DNA of 44,053 nt from a virus (lineage: Duplodnaviria; Heunggongvirae; Uroviricota; Caudoviricetes). Where the stretch lies: positions 1-44,053 of IMG/VR virus record IMGVR_UViG_2597489870_000002. One strand, written 5' to 3'. Position 1 is the first letter of the stretch; every line of letters begins with the position of its first letter. Shown in pieces: positions 32,174 to 40,848 of the stretch. The notes below the pieces were generated by a model, which saw only the letters and a list, made by a program, of their open reading frames with translations, did no database searches and was not told the origin of the DNA. A program made the position numbers and the translations under genes.

Positions 32174-32470
32174 ATGCAAGCGATAGGATTCATTGTTTAT
32201 ATCGTCGTTGGCCTTTTTCAGTTGGCAGCAATTATGGCTGGGCTTGAATCATGGTGGGGATTGCATTGGATAATTGCAGCCCCCATTGCTTTCATCGTGA
32301 GCTATATTCCATTTGTTGGAGCGATTGTTGGTATGGTTGGTGCTGTGGATGTATGGCGGTGGGAGTGGTGGCAGGCTGGCCTTCTCTTCTTTGGTGGGAT
32401 CATCTTTGCTATTGTCTGCGGTGGAATGTCATCATTTTTCGAATGGCTATCATTCAGAAAAAGAGTGTGA
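32174..32470 (+). CDS. 98-aa polytopic membrane protein (moron)
   Basis: Three to four hydrophobic segments and Trp-rich loops. Followed by a terminator. Confidence 0.65.
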   Translation: MQAIGFIVYIVVGLFQLAAIMAGLESWWGLHWIIAAPIAFIVSYIPFVGAIVGMVGAVDVWRWEWWQAGLLFFGGIIFAIVCGGMSSFFEWLSFRKRV

Positions 32471-32478
32471 CATGTCAC

Positions 32479-32503
32479 AGGCCGCTTTCGCGGCCTTGTT
32501 TTT
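32479..32503 (+). terminator. Rho-independent terminator
   Basis: AGGCCGC-TTTC-GCGGCCT followed by TGTTTTT. Directly preceded by the palindrome TGTGACATGTCACA (32466-32479). Confidence 0.8.
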
Positions 32504-32663
32504 AACGAATGCCACCGCCGCCCGGGCGGGAATCCGCAGAACGCCCACCGCAGCGGGAGCCGTCAGCGGCAGTATCGCTGTCGTGCTGACAACGACCGGC
32601 AAAGGCCTGAGTTGAAGCTACCAGAGACAACAAAACGAACAGTGCAGCAAATGCTTTTTTCAT
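32502..32663 (-). CDS. Small secreted peptide (signal peptide plus a 31-aa Cys/Gly/Arg-rich mature part)
   Basis: Internal ATG at 32663. The product is MKKAFAALFVLLSLVASTQAFA | GRCQHDSDTAADGSRCGGRSADSRPGGGGIR. Confidence 0.45.
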   Translation of the reverse strand: MKKAFAALFVLLSLVASTQAFAGRCQHDSDTAADGSRCGGRSADSRPGGGGIR

Positions 32664-32734
32664 TGTGAAATTTCCATCTATAAGCCACCTCAATGTGGCG
32701 TCAATGAGTGTAGCACTGACTTTTGTTTCGTCCA

Positions 32735-32758
32735 CAAAAAAGCCCGCGGCGCGGGCTT
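32735..32758 (-). terminator. Rho-independent terminator after the 125-aa gene
   Basis: AAGCCCGC-GGC-GCGGGCTT. An A-run on the plus strand gives a T-run on the minus strand. Confidence 0.7.
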
Positions 32759-33134
32759 AATTAACTTCGAGGATAATAGAATCTTTAGACTTGAATCCCA
32801 CTTTCCTCATGGCTGTAATGACGTTTTGGATAATCCACGTTTTCCCAAACTCTCTTTCGTGTACAATGGCGCAAGGAAAATGAAGGGCGCTTTTGTTGCA
32901 CTTTATGGTGAAAGTTGTACCTTCGGCAAAATCCAAAACAGTCTGCAGATGTGCAGATATAAACGATTTAAACACATCTTCAAGCTCAGCAAGAGTAATT
33001 GGCGGTTTGTTCCTCTCGTCGTTCAGGCGTTCATATGCTGCATGAAATGAAAAGTGAATTCTTGCCGCATCTTCTTGCAAGATCTCGTTAATCTCATCCT
33101 CAAGATCAATGAGTTGTTGTTCTGTTATAGACAT
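32757..33134 (-). CDS. Hypothetical 125-aa protein, second gene of a bicistronic moron
   Basis: AT-rich. Its start overlaps the upstream gene by 10 nt. The acidic N-terminal helix is followed by IHFSFHAAYERLNDER..ITLAELEDVF, which is loosely reminiscent of small toxin folds. Confidence 0.65.
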   Translation of the reverse strand: MSITEQQLIDLEDEINEILQEDAARIHFSFHAAYERLNDERNKPPITLAELEDVFKSFISAHLQTVLDFAEGTTFTIKCNKSALHFPCAIVHEREFGKTWIIQNVITAMRKVGFKSKDSIILEVN

Positions 33135-33343
33135 AGATAACGGGATGTCGCCTCACTTATTTTTTGATTTAATTCATCATCATTGGATGCGCGTACAGTA
33201 GCAACATGCTTACTTTGGCGTAGGGTCCCAATTCTGATATCAAATTCTTCATTATCGAAAGAGTCAACGAAAACAGCTTTACCAGTTTCTGGATGGTAAA
33301 AAGAGGCATAGTTTTGGTTGAGTTGCATATCAAATTTAAACAT
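33125..33343 (-). CDS. Hypothetical 72-aa protein, first gene of a bicistronic moron
   Basis: 72-aa ORF with the SD GGGAGGATG upstream. A palindrome operator lies about 120 nt upstream. Confidence 0.6.
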   Translation of the reverse strand: MFKFDMQLNQNYASFYHPETGKAVFVDSFDNEEFDIRIGTLRQSKHVATVRASNDDELNQKISEATSRYLCL

Positions 33344-33459
33344 ATCATCCTCCCATACGGGAACAGACGTGACTTACATACGGTGTGATTTTGACTAGTT
33401 AACTTTCTGCAGCAAAACCATCACGGTAACTACAAACTAAAATGTTACAAATCAACTTT

Positions 33460-33476
33460 CTTACCTTTGGGGTAAT
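33460..33476. promoter_or_regulatory. Palindrome operator upstream of the 72/125-aa operon
   Basis: CTTACCTTTGGGGTAAT. Confidence 0.5.
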
Positions 33477-33540
33477 AGTACGCTATTCACCTGCAATCTG
33501 TACAGAATTATTTAAAGGCACATCCCTGTGCCGCCGCCCG

Positions 33541-34233
33541 TCAGAAGAACCCTGCCTTGTCGTTGATGTACTCCGCGTGCGTCTGGATATCACGCAGGCA
33601 TTTGCTCACACCGACGATGTAGCAGAACATGGTGGTCAGTTCCGCCGCCGCGCCCGATACATCATGCCCGTCGTCCTGCAACTGGTTTAGCAGATTCATC
33701 AGCAGTGAGTTCTCCGTCAGGCCGAGAACACCAGACGGCGAGTGAATCAGGCTACGGTAGCCTGGCTTCAGTGGGGCACTGTAGGTTTTGTTCTCTATCT
33801 TCATTGCCTGCATCACTGCTGATGCTGTGGCGTTGGCTACCTGGTCGGCAACCATCTTTATGCGCTCTTCCTGCGGGAGCGAGTTTTTAATGTAGCTTCC
33901 GGTGCGGCGGATCTGAGGAAGAACCTCACCTGTAACCCATTCAAGAAATCTGAATGCTCTCGTTCCCTCAGTCATTGCCTCTTTGCAACGCAGAATAAGG
34001 ATGTAGAGACCTGATTCTGAAACGATGGATAGTTCTTGTATTCCACCAGGGGTCTGTATTGAATACAGCCCCTTTTTGTTCCAGCCTTTTTTATCAAGTT
34101 TTCTCGCTTGTGTAACATCAATATTCAAAGCATTGCACACATCTTTGGTGACAAACCAAGGTTCTCCGTCAATCATGAACATACGGATCTGGCAGGATGA
34201 CTCAAAGGAAAAGATGGAAGGTTTGGTATTCAT
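33541..34233 (-). CDS. Bro-N/KilA-N-type antirepressor
   Basis: ATG at 34233 (MNTKPSIFSFESSCQIRMFMIDGEPWFVTKDVCNALNI = BRO-N pattern). The C-terminal roughly 75 aa are paralogous to ORF 35379..35636. Confidence 0.75.
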   Translation of the reverse strand: MNTKPSIFSFESSCQIRMFMIDGEPWFVTKDVCNALNIDVTQARKLDKKGWNKKGLYSIQTPGGIQELSIVSESGLYILILRCKEAMTEGTRAFRFLEWVTGEVLPQIRRTGSYIKNSLPQEERIKMVADQVANATASAVMQAMKIENKTYSAPLKPGYRSLIHSPSGVLGLTENSLLMNLLNQLQDDGHDVSGAAAELTTMFCYIVGVSKCLRDIQTHAEYINDKAGFF

Positions 34234-34499
34234 GGCGATCACCTTTGTAGTTAGGTTAATCACCACCGCTGAGACCAATCAGATGGTGGTGAACTGTGCA
34301 GAGTTGGTCTTACCGGCTACAAAGGAACCCGGCGCACCTTTCGGTGCCCCCACACAGCCCACCATAGAATAGGTGCGCTTTACACATAAAAAAACCGCTT
34401 ATGCGGCGTATGTGCCTCTGTAGTAATCCGGGAGACCAATCCCGGCACTGGATTTTGCCAGTGCCTGATTACTATGGCACAAGAGGAGTGCGATGTAAA

Positions 34500-35783: not shown

Positions 35784-36635
35784 AACCGGATATGCGGCGC
35801 AACGGGTGCTGCGACTATCTGGAGATTTAACATGACGGTCTCAACCGAAGTTGACCACAACGAATACACAGGTAACGGCGTTACGACATCATTTCCTTAT
35901 ACCTTTAGGGTTTTCAATAAATCTGATCTGGTAGTGCAGGTGATTGACCCTGACGAGAATATCACTGTGCTGGCTCTTGATACTGATTACACGGTGACGG
36001 GGGCTGGAGGATATACTGGCGGGAATGTCATCCTCACAACTGCTCTGGAGAATGGATTTCGTATTTCGATAGCACGTGAACTCCCAGTTACGCAGGAAAC
36101 CGATCTGCGCAATCAAGGCAAGTTCTTTGCAGAGGTGCATGAGGATGCTTTTGATAAGTTAACTATGCTGCTTCAACAGGTTAGAAGTTGGTTTAGTCTG
36201 GCGCTGCGCAAGCCGTCGTTTGTCGCAAACTACTATGATGCTCTTGGTAACTACATCCGCAATCTTCGTGACCCGTCACGTCCTCAGGATGCGGCCACCA
36301 AGAATTATGTCGACTCACTGGCAAGCATTAATCTGTCTAAAACGCTGAGAATGCCAGAGGCAGTACCAGAGCTTCCAAGCGCTGAGCTGAGAAAAAACAA
36401 AATTGTAGCAATGGATGATTCAGGAAATCCTATCATGGTTCTGCCTGAATCTGGTTCCGCTTCAGATGTAATGATTCAACTTGCATCAAGCAATGGTTTA
36501 AAGTTTATAGGTGATGTTCAGTCTGTTATAAAATTAAATGATGCTATCGGAAACATAGGTGATAAGATTTTTTTAAAGTCTTATGTTGAAGGTGAGAATA
36601 AAGGTGGTGGGATTCTTGTTGCTGTTGATAACTCA

Positions 36636-36643
36636 CTATTAGC
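36636..36643. repeat. Target-site duplication, left copy
   Basis: CTATTAGC, identical to 39343-39350. Confidence 0.9.
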
Positions 36644-36696
36644 GTAACCGGCTCATTTAAACCGTCTGGTCTGTTTCCTCCGGCTCTACAAAAATA

Positions 36697-37374
36697 ATGT
36701 CCATCATTTTTAATGGACACTATCGTATGAAACACCGGACCTGGATCACTGAAGCTTTACGTCTTCACTTTGAAGAACATTTACCCCGGGTTGTGGCCGG
36801 GCGTCGCCTGGGTGTACCAAAATCAACAGTTTGTAGTATGTTCGTGCGCTTTCGGAGAGCTGGCCTTTCGTGGCCTTTGCCCGCAGGCATGTCGGAGCAG
36901 GAACTTGATGCCTGCCTTTACGGACAATTTTCCACGGTACCAGTCGTACGTCCTGAAAGCACCGTTATATCCGAAGCCCCCGTGGTAAAAAAACGTCCCC
37001 GGCGGCCCAACTTCCCTTATGAGTTTAAAATCGCCTTAGTGGAGCAGTCACTGCAGCCCGGAGCCTGTGTGGCGCAGATCGCCCGGGAAAACGGAATCAA
37101 CGATAACCTGCTCTTCAACTGGCGCCATCAATACCGGAAAGGTGGCCTGCTGCCTTCCGGAAAAAATATGCCGGCACTGCTTCCCGTGACGTTAACGCCG
37201 GAGCCGGATAATAAAATCCCGGCCCCCGCACAGGAACCAGAGCAGATAAATACACCGTCCGACAGTCTGTGTTGTGAGCTGGTTCTGCCGGCCGGAACTC
37301 TCAGGCTTAAAGGTAAACTGACGCCGGCGTTATTACAGACACTTATCCGCGAAATAAAAGGGAGCAGCCACTGA
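36697..37374 (+). CDS. tnpA: IS66-family accessory protein TnpA (orfA)
   Basis: RRPNFPYEFKIALVEQSLQPGACVAQIARENGINDNLLFNWRHQYRKG. The start is uncertain (an alternative ATG lies at 36727). Confidence 0.75.
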   Translation: MSIIFNGHYRMKHRTWITEALRLHFEEHLPRVVAGRRLGVPKSTVCSMFVRFRRAGLSWPLPAGMSEQELDACLYGQFSTVPVVRPESTVISEAPVVKKRPRRPNFPYEFKIALVEQSLQPGACVAQIARENGINDNLLFNWRHQYRKGGLLPSGKNMPALLPVTLTPEPDNKIPAPAQEPEQINTPSDSLCCELVLPAGTLRLKGKLTPALLQTLIREIKGSSH

Positions 37375-37721
37375 TGATATCTCTCCCTGCAGGTTCGCGT
37401 ATCTGGCTGGTTGCAGGTATCACCGATATGCGAAATGGCTTTAACGGCCTGGCATCAAAAGTTCAGAACGTCCTGAAGGATGACCCGTTCTCCGGACACC
37501 TGTTCATCTTCCGCGGACGCCGGGGTGACCAGATAAAAGTGTTGTGGGCTGACAGTGACGGACTGTGCCTCTTCACCAAACGCCTGGAGCGGGGCCGCTT
37601 CGTCTGGCCAGTCACCCGTGACGGCAAGGTGCACCTTACTCCGGCTCAGTTATCCATGCTTCTTGAAGGTATCAACTGGAAGCACCCGAAACGAACGGAA
37701 CGCGCTGGAATCCGCATATAA
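37374..37721 (+). CDS. tnpB: IS66-family TnpB (orfB)
   Basis: 115 aa. ..RIWLVAGITDMRNGFNGLASKVQ..DPFSGHLFIFRGRRGDQIKVLWAD is the classic IS66 orf2. ATGA-type coupling to orfA. Confidence 0.9.
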   Translation: MISLPAGSRIWLVAGITDMRNGFNGLASKVQNVLKDDPFSGHLFIFRGRRGDQIKVLWADSDGLCLFTKRLERGRFVWPVTRDGKVHLTPAQLSMLLEGINWKHPKRTERAGIRI

Positions 37722-37740
37722 CCCGTTGTAAAGTGAGGAT

Positions 37741-39312
37741 ATGGACACCTCACTTGCTCATGAGAACGCCCGCCTGCGGGCACTGTTGCAGACGCAACAG
37801 GACACCATCCGCCAGATGGCTGAATACAACCGCCTGCTCTCACAGCGGGTGGCGGCTTATGCTTCCGAAATCAACCGGCTGAAGGCGCTGGTTGCGAAAC
37901 TGCAACGTATGCAGTTCGGTAAAAGCTCAGAAAAACTTCGTGCAAAAACCGAACGGCAGATACAGGAAGCACAGGAGCGAATCAGCGCACTTCAGGAAGA
38001 AATGGCGGAAACGCTGGGTGAGCAATATGACCCGGTACTGCCATCCGCCCTGCGCCAGTCTTCAGCCCGTAAACCGTTACCGGCCTCACTTCCCCGTGAA
38101 ACCCGGGTTATCCGGCCGGAAGAGGAATGCTGTCCTGCCTGTGGTGGTGAACTCAGTTCTCTGGGATGTGATGTGTCAGAGCAACTGGAGCTTATCAGCA
38201 GCGCCTTTAAGGTTATCGAAACACAACGTCCGAAACAGGCCTGTTGCCGGTGCGACCATATCGTGCAGGCACCAGTACCTTCAAAACCCATTGCACGCAG
38301 TTATGCCGGAGCGGGGCTTCTGGCCCATGTTGTCACCGGGAAATATGCAGACCATCTGCCGTTATACCGCCAGTCAGAAATATACCGTCGTCAGGGAGTG
38401 GAGCTGAGCCGTGCCACACTGGGGCGCTGGACAGGTGCTGTTGCTGAACTGCTGGAGCCGCTGTATGACGTCCTGCGCCAGTATGTGCTGATGCCCGGTA
38501 AAGTCCATGCTGATGATATCCCCGTCCCGGTCCAGGAGCCGGGCAGCGGTAAAACCCGGACAGCCCGGCTGTGGGTCTACGTCCGTGATGACCGTAACGC
38601 CGGTTCACAGATGCCCCCGGCGGTCTGGTTCGCGTACAGTCCGGACCGGAAAGGTATCCATCCACAAAATCACCTGGCCGGTTACAGCGGTGTGCTTCAG
38701 GCCGATGCTTACGGTGGTTACCGGGCGTTATACGAATCCGGCAGAATAACGGAAGCCGCGTGTATGGCTCATGCCCGGAGAAAAATCCACGATGTGCATG
38801 CAAGAGCGCCCACCTACATCACCACGGAAGCCCTGCAGCGTATCGGTGAACTGTATGCCATCGAGGCAGAGGTCCGGGGCTGTTCAGCAGAACAGCGTCT
38901 GGCGGCAAGAAAAGCCAGAGCCGCGCCACTGATGCAGTCACTGTATGACTGGATACAGCAACAGATGAAAACACTGTCGCGTCACTCAGATACGGCAAAA
39001 GCGTTCGCATACCTGCTGAAACAGTGGGATGCACTGAACGTGTACTGCAGTAATGGCTGGGTGGAAATCGACAACAACATCGCAGAGAACGCCTTACGGG
39101 GAGTGGCCGTAGGCCGGAAAAACTGGATGTTCGCGGGTTCCGACAGCGGTGGTGAACATGCGGCGGTGTTGTACTCGCTGATCGGCACATGCCGTCTGAA
39201 CAATGTGGAGCCAGAAAAGTGGCTGCGTTACGTCATTGAACATATCCAGGACTGGCCGGCAAACCGGGTACGCGATCTGTTGCCCTGGAAAGTTGATCTG
39301 AGCTCTCAGTAA
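37741..39312 (+). CDS. tnpC: IS66-family transposase TnpC (orfC)
   Basis: 523 aa with an N-terminal leucine-zipper-like coil, a CPACGG zinc motif and a DDE-type core (..LQADAYGGY..). Confidence 0.9.
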
Positions 39313-39342
39313 ATATCAATACGGTTCTGACGAGTCGCTTAC

Positions 39343-39350
39343 CTATTAGC
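39343..39350. repeat. Target-site duplication, right copy
   Basis: CTATTAGC. Confidence 0.9.
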
Positions 39351-40848
39351 AGATGATATAGTTATATTTAATGGTAATGGAGTGAAATGGAGACGTCTAT
39401 TTTTTACTGGTGAAGTAACTGTATTCGACGCTGGTTATACAGGCTCTGGCGACATTGCTCAATATATAAACAAAATAAATTCAGCAGGATATGACTGCGT
39501 TATTCCATGCTCAGGTGATTTTTCGAGTGCTATTGCAATAGATGTAAGCAAGGGCAGCGTAAGGGGGGTAAATAAATGCATACTTACCGAGATTCCAGGC
39601 GTATCTGGAGATTATGCGCTGACGATTGTTAACTCAAATACAGATTATGCTGACCGTGATGCAATTAATGCTACAGCTATCATTGACGGAGTAGCATTTA
39701 ATTTCATGGGCACCAAAAAAGTTGGTTTGGGAGGGGTAGGTACTGGGGATCTTTCAGAGTTGCGGATCAGTAACGTGGGTATGATTGGTTCCGCTGGTGT
39801 AGAATTCCTGGAAAATTCATATCGTTTGATGTTCGATAAATTTGCTATATCGAGAAGCTTTACCAACACTATCATTTTTAACTCGCCAGCAAATTCTGGT
39901 GAGGTTATTAAATTCAGTCACGGTTGGATGGTTGATAATGGTGGACCGCTAACATTTAATAACGGTCAATTTATTTTTGACTCATGCTCAATGCCTGCCG
40001 GGAAGAAAGTGGGTTATTTAGAGCCAAGTGTAATTATGCATGGCAACGCTCACGTTGTTTATGCTAACGGTAATGTCGAATTCCAGCCCGGGCAGAGCTT
40101 TGTAGCCTTTGTTGTGGATGGCAGTTCAAGGCTGTCAATCAAGGACACCACCATACTTACGCCTACTGGTTATTCAGCCATACCAATAATCGCAAATGAT
40201 GATGGGGTTGTGTCACTGACAAACTGCTCTCTTCCATTATATGACCAGAAGGATCTGGCTGCTGGCGCTGCTACTCGTCAAGTGATTGGTGGAAATAGTA
40301 AGAAGGTTATCTCCCGTGGATGCTACCCTCGGGCAGGTTTTATAACATCCAACTGGGATAAGGGTAATATAGTTAGTCCATTTATCAACGCGCTAAGTAA
40401 TGGTAGTGGTCAGTTCTCAAACTATTCCAACTGGGTTTTGGCACAAAAAGGTACAGGTGTCGTAACTGCGGGTACTGATACGGATGTCCCTAACACTGTT
40501 ATGTTTTCCAGATCACTGTATGTGAATATTCCATCGGTTGGGGCTGCTGCTGATTTTTATCAGGAATGCTTAGAATGCGAGCCAGGGCGGTATTTCCAGT
40601 TAGGTTTCTGGGCTAAAAATCAAGTTACAACAATTTCTGGAATTGAATTTTTTGATAAAGAAGGTAACTCAGTACAAGGTAAAGGAACATTTACAATTCC
40701 AACTGGTTCTACATTTAATTTCTACGCATTAATAGATGTTGTTCCTCCTGGTGCAAGTAAGGTTAGGATTGGATTTGATGTATCAGGATCGGTTGGTTCT
40801 CTTCATATCCATAATGCTATTTATGGATTGATATAAACACTAAATTTC

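What the first reader, a model, noticed from the sequence alone, without database searches (positions are those of the whole stretch)
32757..33476. AT-rich overlapping 72-aa/125-aa bicistron with its own operator and terminator: candidate toxin-antitoxin or exclusion module
**What the sequence shows.**
- Two small genes on the minus strand overlap by 10 nt (33125-33134).
- They are preceded by a palindrome operator (33460-33476).
- They are closed by a terminator (32735-32758).
- The cassette is clearly more AT-rich than the flanking structural genes.

**Interpretation.** I recognise neither protein. The 125-aa product has an acidic N-terminal helix followed by ..IHFSFHAAYERLNDER..ITLAELEDVF and beta-strand-like segments. 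This loosely recalls small RNase-type toxins with an H-x-x-x-x-R signature, as in DUF4258. That resemblance is speculative.

A small, tightly coupled two-gene architecture in a prophage accessory slot is the typical look of TA, abortive-infection or superinfection-exclusion modules.
Basis: inference. Interest (0 to 1): 0.55.

Follow-up and report, generated by a model that had tools for sequence, protein, structure and literature searches.

The report
RegB-like RNase toxin–antitoxin pair in prophage
Two small overlapping prophage genes most likely form an undescribed toxin–antitoxin pair: the 125-aa protein is predicted to fold like the mRNA-cutting enzymes T4 RegB and RelE, and the 72-aa acidic protein is its constant partner.

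Summary
The window is a Uetakevirus-like prophage of E. coli ETEC H10407. The two overlapping minus-strand genes, the terminator and the low GC content are all real.

The claim that the cassette has "its own operator and terminator" is not supported. The 5-bp-arm palindrome is at chance level. Both it and the terminator lie in conserved flanks that other E. coli prophages share around different cargo, including YafO-toxin pairs.

The 72-aa acidic partner sits immediately upstream in 22 of 22 phage-like contigs. It also accompanies the toxin across gamma- and betaproteobacteria, including non-prophage sites. In 6 of 22 species genomes the RNase gene is frameshifted, deleted, truncated or absent, and the partner ORF is still intact in 5 of them. 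That is a toxin–antitoxin signature.

Verdict: probably a new type II-like TA family with a RegB-like RNase toxin. Toxicity, neutralisation and any defence role are untested.

The parts
33125..33343 (-). 72-aa acidic protein (pI 5.2), the candidate antitoxin. Annotated as WP_000472086 'hypothetical protein'; phrog_14630.
   Evidence: ORF with SD GGGAGG at 33349-33354. It matches no Pfam, NCBIfam, PADLOC or PDB relative. The family is conserved, with invariant NYASF...VDSFDN.EF, and its members have pI 4.05-5.16. It lies directly upstream of a RegB-like gene in 22/22 viral contigs and in 20/22 species genomes, where 16 downstream genes are intact and 4 are damaged.
32757..33134 (-). 125-aa protein with a predicted RegB/RelE-like endoribonuclease fold, the candidate toxin. 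Annotated as WP_000028685 'hypothetical protein'; phrog_14518.
33125..33134 (-). 10-nt overlap of the antitoxin stop codon with the toxin start codon (translational coupling).
   Evidence: In homologues the junction is a 1-10-nt overlap or a gap of at most 7 nt.
32734..32758 (-). Rho-independent terminator that closes the slot. It is shared by all cargo alleles.
   Evidence: It is conserved in TL-2011b, E. coli 4/1-1 and Klebsiella, with loop changes only.
33461..33475 (-). TTACC-N5-GGTAA palindrome, the last conserved element of the left flank. It is not specific to this cassette.
   Evidence: It is statistically at chance level. Its arms are conserved in alleles with unrelated cargo.
32759..33455 (-). 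The exchangeable cargo segment (about 700 bp, 38.7% GC) inside a conserved prophage slot.
   Evidence: Only 4 of 5426 complete E. coli genomes carry this cargo, while 464 carry the flanks. Breakpoints come from pairwise BLAST and alignment.
33541..34278 (-). Upstream Bro-N (antirepressor-like) gene on the same strand. It may be co-transcribed with the cassette.
   Evidence: Pfam Bro-N at 2e-13. RefSeq annotates the start at window 34233. Only a weak hairpin (GGCACAgggaTGTGCC, 33517-33532) separates it from the cassette.
34282..34499 (-). Regulatory RNAs of a P1 immI-like / Gifsy-1-like operon heading the bro-cassette operon: promoter-like site 34471-34499, isrK 34388-34464 and C4 antisense RNA 34282-34369.
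   Evidence: Rfam gathering-score hits of 73 and 78.6 bits. Promoter-like TTTACA-17-(TG)CATAGT and the isrK terminator come.

Best explanation
The cassette is a two-protein (type II-like) toxin-antitoxin module carried as exchangeable cargo in an accessory slot of a Uetakevirus-like prophage.

- The 125-aa protein is a RegB/RelE-fold endoribonuclease. By analogy with RegB, RelE and YoeB it would cut mRNA, possibly on or near the ribosome, by a metal-independent cyclizing mechanism. His31 would act as general acid/base, and Arg36, Arg41, Arg110 and Lys111 would hold the scissile phosphate.
- The 72-aa acidic protein is made first from the same transcript, is translationally coupled, and binds and masks the RNase.
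- When synthesis of the pair stops or the partner is degraded (loss of the element, stress, or phage-induced shut-off), free RNase arrests translation. That would stabilise the prophage and/or abort infection by other phages.

Shown here: gene structure, fold prediction, conserved residues, co-inheritance, mobility, and asymmetric decay. Inferred: RNase activity, toxicity, neutralisation by binding, the trigger, and the biological role.
2. Active site. H31, R36, R41, E50, T107 and R110 are invariant over 47 sequences that are only 24-73% identical to the query. hhalign against a RegB family alignment pairs H31 with H48, D35/R36 with D51/R52 and I46 with I58 (P = 0.0017). H48 is a catalytic His of RegB.
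3. RegB is toxic when expressed in E. coli. It served as the toxic control, giving 6% of control transformants (PMC7291057). A resident RegB-like enzyme would therefore need an inhibitor.
4. Coupling. There is a 10-nt overlap. The partner is directly upstream in 22/22 toxin-seeded viral contigs. It also accompanies the toxin in Klebsiella, Pantoea, Yersinia, Rahnella, Cellvibrio, Microbulbifer, Burkholderia, Chromobacterium and others, at 41-68% partner identity.
5. Asymmetric decay. Of 22 antitoxin-seeded species genomes, the toxin is frameshifted in 2, carries a 26-aa internal deletion in 1, has a premature stop in 1 and is absent in 2. The 72-aa ORF is intact in 5 of these 6.
6. Autonomy. 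Copies lie between metabolic genes in Pantoea allii and in a 405-kb chromosomal contig. Only the two genes plus the RBS are homologous to the window there.
7. Slot context. Alternative alleles of the same slot include a small ORF plus a YafO-family toxin (26.3 bits, cutoff 25) and other two-gene sets.
8. Charge. The partners are uniformly acidic, pI 4.05-5.16.
Against: - There is no experimental evidence of toxicity, RNase activity or binding.
- RegB's second catalytic His68 aligns with Lys56, which is only about 50% conserved.
- The H10407 toxin is acidic overall (pI 5.2, net -7, mostly from the N-terminal helix), unlike basic RegB and RelE.
- The partner has no recognisable DNA-binding domain, and no cassette-specific operator exists. 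Classical autoregulation is therefore not evident.
- Remote relatives in large lytic-type phage genomes stand alone or are fused to other domains without this partner. The domain is therefore not always kept with an antidote.
- The two census samples (toxin-seeded close relatives versus antitoxin-seeded species representatives) are not matched.
Confidence: 0.6

Rival explanations
1. The pair is a phage-development function rather than an addiction or defence module. The RegB-like nuclease would reprogramme host or phage mRNA after induction or infection, as RegB does for T4 early mRNAs. The 72-aa protein would be a timing inhibitor, cofactor or chaperone. Both would be expressed from the antirepressor (isrK-C4-bro) operon.
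For: The closest structural relative is a phage developmental RNase. Remote homologues sit in long co-directional gene arrays of 138-222-kb phage-like contigs and in phiM12-type proteins. In three prophage types the pair lies directly downstream of an antirepressor gene, on the same strand, behind isrK and C4 regulatory RNAs and with no strong intervening terminator or promoter.
Against: The cargo is dispensable: only 4 of 464 E. coli prophages with this slot carry it, and others carry unrelated genes. The pair also occurs outside prophages. Toxin-only decay with the partner retained is not expected for a cofactor.
Confidence: 0.15
2. The 125-aa protein keeps the RelE/RegB fold but is not a nuclease. 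It would be, for example, a ribosome- or RNA-binding regulator or a decoy. The pair would be a non-toxic accessory complex.
Against: His, Arg, Arg, Glu, Thr and Arg are invariant across very divergent bacterial and phage members. H31 and R36 coincide with the RegB catalytic helix. Repeated inactivation of this gene only suggests it is costly.
Confidence: 0.12
3. The module is a dedicated anti-phage abortive-infection or superinfection-exclusion system that senses a phage protein, not a generic addiction module.
For: It sits in a prophage accessory hot-spot holding many alternative small modules, including membrane-protein pairs and YafO toxins. This is typical of defence islands in temperate phages (general knowledge).
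Against: No PADLOC model matches, no sensor-like domain is present, and there are no data on phage resistance. This rival overlaps the best explanation. It differs only in the trigger and the selected role.
Confidence: 0.1
4. Reversed polarity: the 72-aa protein is the toxin and the 125-aa protein is the antidote, in HigBA-like gene order.
For: Some TA families place the toxin first (general knowledge).
Against: The 125-aa protein carries the toxin fold. It is the 125-aa gene that is pseudogenised while the 72-aa gene persists. The 72-aa proteins are acidic, like antitoxins.
Confidence: 0.03

Closest known systems
Bacteriophage T4 RegB endoribonuclease (PDB 2HX6)
   Different: Sequence similarity is detectable only by profile-profile comparison (P = 0.0017). 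RegB His68 corresponds to Lys56. RegB is basic, is 153 aa long, stands alone in a lytic phage and has no known protein antidote. This protein is acidic, is 125 aa long and is always paired with a 72-aa partner. GGAG specificity and S1 dependence are unknown here.
RelE/RelB, YoeB/YefM, HigB/HigA, YafQ/DinJ and ParE/ParD type II toxin-antitoxin systems
   Different: There is no HMM-level match to any Pfam RelE, ParE, HigB or YoeB model. The active-site layout is RegB-like, not RelE-like. The partner has no RHH, HTH, Phd or AbrB DNA-binding domain and no relative in Pfam or PDB. No cassette-specific operator exists.
YafO-family toxin modules occupying the same slot in phage TL-2011b and many E. 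coli prophages
   Same: They have the same genomic position (between the Bro-N gene and the shared terminator), the same small-ORF-plus-toxin layout with overlap, and the same flanks.
   Different: The proteins are unrelated. YafO_toxin scores 26.3 bits for TL-2011b gp44 and does not hit the 125-aa protein. The upstream ORFs there are basic, not acidic.
   Different: There is no Pfam match at E <= 1 for the query or for 47 family members, and the BrnT structural score is far below those of RegB and RelE.

Membership tests
Type II toxin-antitoxin system | Two adjacent co-oriented small genes in one operon, usually overlapping or coupled | tested here: met
   There is a 10-nt overlap. The junction is conserved in 22/22 viral and 16+ genomic homologous loci.
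Type II toxin-antitoxin system | Toxin belongs to a fold or enzyme class that arrests growth | tested here: met
   The predicted fold is RegB/RelE-like. RegB is toxic in E. coli (PMC7291057). This holds at fold level only.
Type II toxin-antitoxin system | Toxin expression inhibits growth and the cognate antitoxin rescues it | not testable with these tools
   There is only indirect support: the toxin gene is inactivated or lost in 6/22 species loci, with the partner intact in 5 of the 6.
Type II toxin-antitoxin system | Antitoxin binds the toxin directly | not testable with these tools
Type II toxin-antitoxin system | Antitoxin carries a DNA-binding domain and autoregulates through an operator | tested here: not met
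   The partner shows no Pfam, NCBIfam or PDB DNA-binding domain. The palindrome is at chance level and belongs to the shared flank. This feature is not universal among TA systems.
T4 RegB endoribonuclease family | RelE-like two-helix/four-strand core preceded by an extra N-terminal helix | tested here: met
T4 RegB endoribonuclease family | Detectable sequence homology to RegB proteins | tested here: inconclusive
   The profile HMM does not find 2hx6 or T4 regB. hhalign of A2 against an 8-member RegB alignment gives P = 0.0017 over 36 columns centred on the catalytic helix.
T4 RegB endoribonuclease family | Catalytic His48 (with Arg52 on the same helix) | tested here: met
   H31 and R36 are invariant in 47 sequences and align to H48 and R52.
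T4 RegB endoribonuclease family | Second catalytic His68 | tested here: not met
   The aligned position is Lys56 in the window protein. It is Lys in only about half of the family.
T4 RegB endoribonuclease family | Cleavage within GGAG, stimulated by ribosomal protein S1 | not testable with these tools
   This needs biochemistry.
RelE/ParE superfamily as defined by Pfam sequence models | Match to a RelE, ParE, HigB, YoeB or YafQ HMM | tested here: not met
   hmmscan gives 0 families at E <= 1 for the query, and no such family appears among the 25 most frequent hits of 47 members.
DUF4258 (PF14076) | Match to the DUF4258 HMM | tested here: not met
Known anti-phage defence systems (PADLOC-DB 2.0) | Match to any defence-protein model | tested here: not met
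   The only hit is a spurious Cas8b match at E 0.009 for the 125-aa protein. The 72-aa protein has none.

The most novel reading that the evidence does not exclude
RegB-type ribonucleases may form a large, unrecognised superfamily rather than a T4 curiosity. The profile search found more than 630 clusters at 50% identity, and the family is absent from Pfam. One branch became stand-alone or fused domains in marine and T4-like phage proteins. Another branch became the toxin of a previously undescribed TA family, with a novel antidote that lacks a DNA-binding domain. That would be the first RegB-type nuclease with a dedicated protein inhibitor, the 'anti-RegB partner' once speculated for T4. In prophages the module is wired downstream of the antirepressor (isrK/C4-bro) operon, so the RNase could be released at induction or superinfection.
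Probability: 0.3. Interest if true: 0.7.

Novelty: new variant of a known kind. Interest (0 to 1): 0.55.

Why it matters
- It would add a new toxin family (RegB-like) and a new antitoxin family to the type II TA repertoire. The module is common in Klebsiella prophages: the index lists it in more than 3,000 blocks of the assembly collection.
- It would link the long-isolated T4 RegB nuclease to the TA world at the level of an actual toxin-antidote pair.
- It would give a name and a testable activity to a domain found in hundreds of phage protein clusters.
- The slot itself has conserved flanks and swappable two-gene cargo downstream of an antirepressor operon. It is a convenient natural catalogue of candidate prophage defence and addiction modules.

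Tried and rejected
- Pfam, NCBIfam, PADLOC and PDB-sequence searches of both proteins gave nothing usable. PHROGs returned only 'unknown function' families.
- The first AF2 run, on a shallow alignment of 20 close homologues, failed with pLDDT 46. Only after adding remote domain homologues did it reach pLDDT 97.
- The afdb50 library was unavailable.
- I looked for a homologue of the 72-aa partner next to T4 regB. The best hit was E = 0.23, the ORF just upstream, which is not significant.
- I looked for the 72-aa domain inside the multi-domain RegB-like proteins. The only hit was a frameshift artefact, P0098.
- Literature searches for the protein accessions and for 'RegB-like' returned 0 papers.
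- Rfam on the cassette gave only sub-threshold hits caused by the terminator hairpin.
- The 'operator' palindrome is rejected as cassette-specific.
- Other slot cargos are unrelated to either protein.
- The module is rare on plasmids (2 of 72,556 records) and in deposited phage genomes (2 of 50,697 records).

Full report
**Provenance and anatomy**

The window is 100% identical to E. coli ETEC H10407, NC_017633 around 2.84-2.88 Mb. It is a complete-looking temperate podovirus prophage with integrase, RecT, replication genes, terminase, portal, capsid, T7-gp14-like core proteins, holins and endolysin. It is related to TL-2011b and other Uetakevirus-type phages.

On the minus strand, a 72-aa ORF (33125-33343) with a strong SD overlaps a 125-aa ORF (32757-33134) by 10 nt. 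A canonical terminator hairpin plus T-run (32734-32758) begins inside the stop codon. The cassette is 38.7% GC against 50.5% for the window. Both ORFs are under strong purifying selection, with dN/dS of 0.08 and 0.03. The physical observation is therefore correct.

**The 'own operator and terminator'**

Pairwise BLAST and alignment against other E. coli prophages show that the flanks are 92-99% identical. Homology stops at 33456-33461 and resumes at 32757/8.

- The TTACC-N5-GGTAA palindrome (33461-33475) is the last conserved element of the left flank, and the terminator is the first element of the right flank. Both are present around completely different cargo.
- The palindrome has 5-bp arms and is not enriched over shuffles (5 observed, 2.0 +/- 1.8 expected, P = 0.09).
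- Of 5426 complete E. coli genomes, 464 have the flanks and only 4 carry this cargo.
- Other alleles hold a small basic ORF plus a YafO-family toxin (TL-2011b gp45/gp44; Pfam YafO_toxin 26.3 bits). Others hold a 62-aa plus 110-aa membrane-protein pair, a 55-aa plus 146-aa pair, a single 210-aa protein, or DUF4760 or DUF2335 proteins.

The feature is thus an exchangeable roughly 700-bp cargo in a conserved 'expression slot'.

**What the 125-aa protein is**

- No Pfam, NCBIfam, PADLOC or PDB-sequence match exists. PHROGs places it in an unannotated family and weakly matches the C-terminus of a 602-aa phage family.
- Close homologues (56-99% identity, all about 125 aa) occur in Escherichia, Enterobacter, Salmonella, Klebsiella and Pantoea.
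- A profile search of 1.84 billion cluster representatives found 634 proteins at E <= 1e-3. In these the whole domain (positions 3-121) is stand-alone, N-terminal or C-terminal in proteins of 200-1200 aa. One 5704-aa protein matched in nine stretches. Fusion partners include cytidylyltransferase-like and DUF3008 domains.
- The family consensus is ...FT.HF.DR.ND.RN.P.IT..EL...F ... TIMRKK.FK. Invariant residues are H31, R36, R41, E50, T107, R110 and F114. No Pfam family matches consistently across 47 members.
- With 20 close homologues AF2 failed (pLDDT 46). With the 47-sequence alignment it gave pLDDT 97 and pTM 0.89.
- Foldseek against PDB was uninformative. Against predicted viral structures it returned the phiM12 602-aa protein (TM 0.83) and an annotated RegB, 'site-specific RNA endonuclease' (E 6e-6, prob 1.0).
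- The topology is the RelE core preceded by an extra helix. The review PMC3014915 describes exactly this as the difference between RegB and RelE/YoeB.
- I rebuilt a RegB family alignment from eight T4-like phages. hhalign against it gave a local match (P = 0.0017). It superposes H31 on the catalytic H48, D35/R36 on D51/R52, I46 on I58 and F55 on F67. RegB's second catalytic His68 falls on Lys56, which is only partly conserved.
- Plain HMMs do not connect the families.

I conclude that the protein is a RegB-like member of the RelE/RegB endoribonuclease fold class. Membership of the RegB sequence family proper is not established.

**What the 72-aa protein is, and whether the pair is a unit**

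- The partner has no relative in Pfam, NCBIfam, PADLOC or PDB. It forms a tight family with invariant NYASF..G..VFVDSFDN.EF and a predicted C-terminal helix. All members are acidic, pI 4.05-5.16.
- Seeding with the toxin: 22 of 22 IMG/VR phage-like contigs (56-100% toxin identity) have the partner directly upstream.
- Seeding with the partner in one genome per GTDB species gave 22 loci. They come from Klebsiella, Pantoea, Winslowiella, Rahnella, Yersinia, Cellvibrionaceae, Microbulbifer, Saccharophagus, Thioploca, Oceanospirillaceae, Burkholderia, Pseudoduganella, a Pseudomonas megaplasmid and others.
- Sixteen of those loci have an intact RegB-like gene of about 125 aa within -10 to +7 nt of the partner's stop. 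In Winslowiella and Saccharophagus the toxin gene is frameshifted. In Pseudoduganella it has lost 26 internal residues. In P. silvicola it has an in-frame stop. In two MAGs it is absent. The partner ORF is intact in five of these six.
- A Chromobacterium prophage and a 405-kb chromosomal contig carry divergent intact pairs, with the partner 41-48% identical to the window protein.
- In Pantoea allii the pair sits between acyltransferase and cupin/ABC-transporter genes. Nucleotide homology to the window covers just the two genes and the RBS.

This combination is the genomic behaviour of a toxin-antitoxin module: strict linkage, autonomous mobility, and loss of the RNase gene but not of its partner. 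T4 RegB itself is toxic when cloned in E. coli (PMC7291057).

**Regulatory context**

- No sigma-70-like promoter scoring at least 9/12 lies in the 197-nt spacer upstream of the pair. Relative to other alleles, H10407 has a 7-nt deletion inside a TTGCAG-17-TACTAT promoter-like element of the shared flank.
- Upstream on the same strand is a Bro-N antirepressor-like gene. It is preceded by Rfam gathering-score matches to C4 antisense RNA (34282-34369) and isrK (34388-34464), and by a promoter-like site at 34471-34499.
- From my own knowledge, this resembles the phage P1 immI operon (c4-icd-ant) and the Salmonella Gifsy-1 IsrK antirepressor locus.
- In Klebsiella and Chromobacterium prophages the pair also follows an antirepressor gene.

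Whether the pair is read through from this operon or has its own weak promoter cannot be decided here.

**Mechanism and rivals**

- Most likely (about 0.6): a type II-like TA module with a RegB-like mRNA endonuclease toxin and a novel acidic protein antidote. It would serve prophage stabilisation and/or abortive infection.
- Rival 1 (about 0.15): a developmental RegB-like nuclease with a timing partner, expressed from the antirepressor operon.
- Rival 2 (about 0.12): a non-catalytic RelE-fold protein.
- Rival 3 (about 0.1): a dedicated phage-sensing defence system. This overlaps the main model.
- Rival 4 (about 0.03): reversed polarity.
- Main weaknesses: there is no experiment, sequence similarity to RegB is weak, the His68 equivalent is missing, the H10407 toxin is acidic overall, and no DNA-binding domain or operator was found. 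Partner-less relatives also exist in large phage genomes.

**Novelty**

- No paper in the library mentions the accessions or 'RegB-like', and no family model covers either protein.
- TA modules with RelE-fold toxins are well known, so this is a new variant, not a new kind.
- The RegB connection, the new antidote family and the large unannotated phage domain family give it moderate interest.

Noticed in passing
window 34282-34499 (- strand): Rfam gathering-score hits to C4 antisense RNA (34282-34369, 78.6 bits) and isrK Hfq-binding RNA (34388-34464, 73 bits). A promoter-like site lies at 34471-34499, directly upstream of the Bro-N antirepressor-like gene. This is a P1 immI-like / Gifsy-1 IsrK-like regulatory arrangement that may also control the cargo slot.
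   Followed up: partly
window ~35832-40836 (IS at ~36697-39312): The prophage tailspike or tail-fibre gene appears to be split by an IS66-family element (ISCro1: tnpA, tnpB and transposase). RefSeq flags one fragment as incomplete. The prophage is probably defective for virion production.
   Followed up: no
window 32759-33455, the slot between the Bro-N gene and the shared terminator; loci L002, L009, L046-L048: The slot is a hypervariable cargo site in about 460 complete E. coli genomes. Alleles include a small basic ORF plus a YafO-family toxin, a 62-aa plus 110-aa membrane-protein pair, a 55-aa basic plus 146-aa acidic pair, a single 210-aa protein, and DUF4760 or DUF2335 proteins. Most are unannotated and could be further defence or addiction modules.
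   Followed up: partly
proteins P0113-P0246; BFVD S5MQF5 (Sinorhizobium phage phiM12, 602 aa): The RegB-like domain is fused at the N- or C-terminus of 200-1200-aa phage proteins. Partners include cytidylyltransferase-like, nucleotidyltransferase and DUF3008 domains. One 5704-aa protein matched in nine stretches. Stand-alone copies lie in 138-222-kb contigs that also encode a plastocyanin-like protein, which suggests cyanomyoviruses. The function of these proteins is unknown.
   Followed up: partly
window 33476-33506 versus L002/L009 (alignment A5): H10407 lacks 7 nt (GACTGnG) that other alleles have between TTGCA and GGTGAA. In those alleles the spacing gives TTGCAG-17-TACTAT, a plausible slot promoter. 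The deletion may weaken cargo expression in H10407.
   Followed up: no
window 33517-33532 (- strand): The hairpin GGCACA-GGGA-TGTGCC, followed by TTTAAATAATT, lies just after the Bro-N stop codon. It may be a weak or leaky terminator separating bro from the cargo.
   Followed up: no
window 32502-32735 (- strand) and 32174-32470 (+ strand): Just downstream of the terminator is a small gene, annotated in RefSeq as 53 aa. It has a signal-peptide-like N-terminus and a Gly/Arg-rich tail (phrog_14503, 'membrane associated protein', moron category). It faces a convergent 98-aa multi-pass membrane protein (weak holin-family hit). Both are conserved with the slot.
   Followed up: no
L027, L028, L034, L039, L030, L042: These are natural pseudogene or orphan versions of the module: the toxin is frameshifted, internally deleted, stopped or missing. 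They could guide mutational mapping of essential toxin regions.
   Followed up: yes
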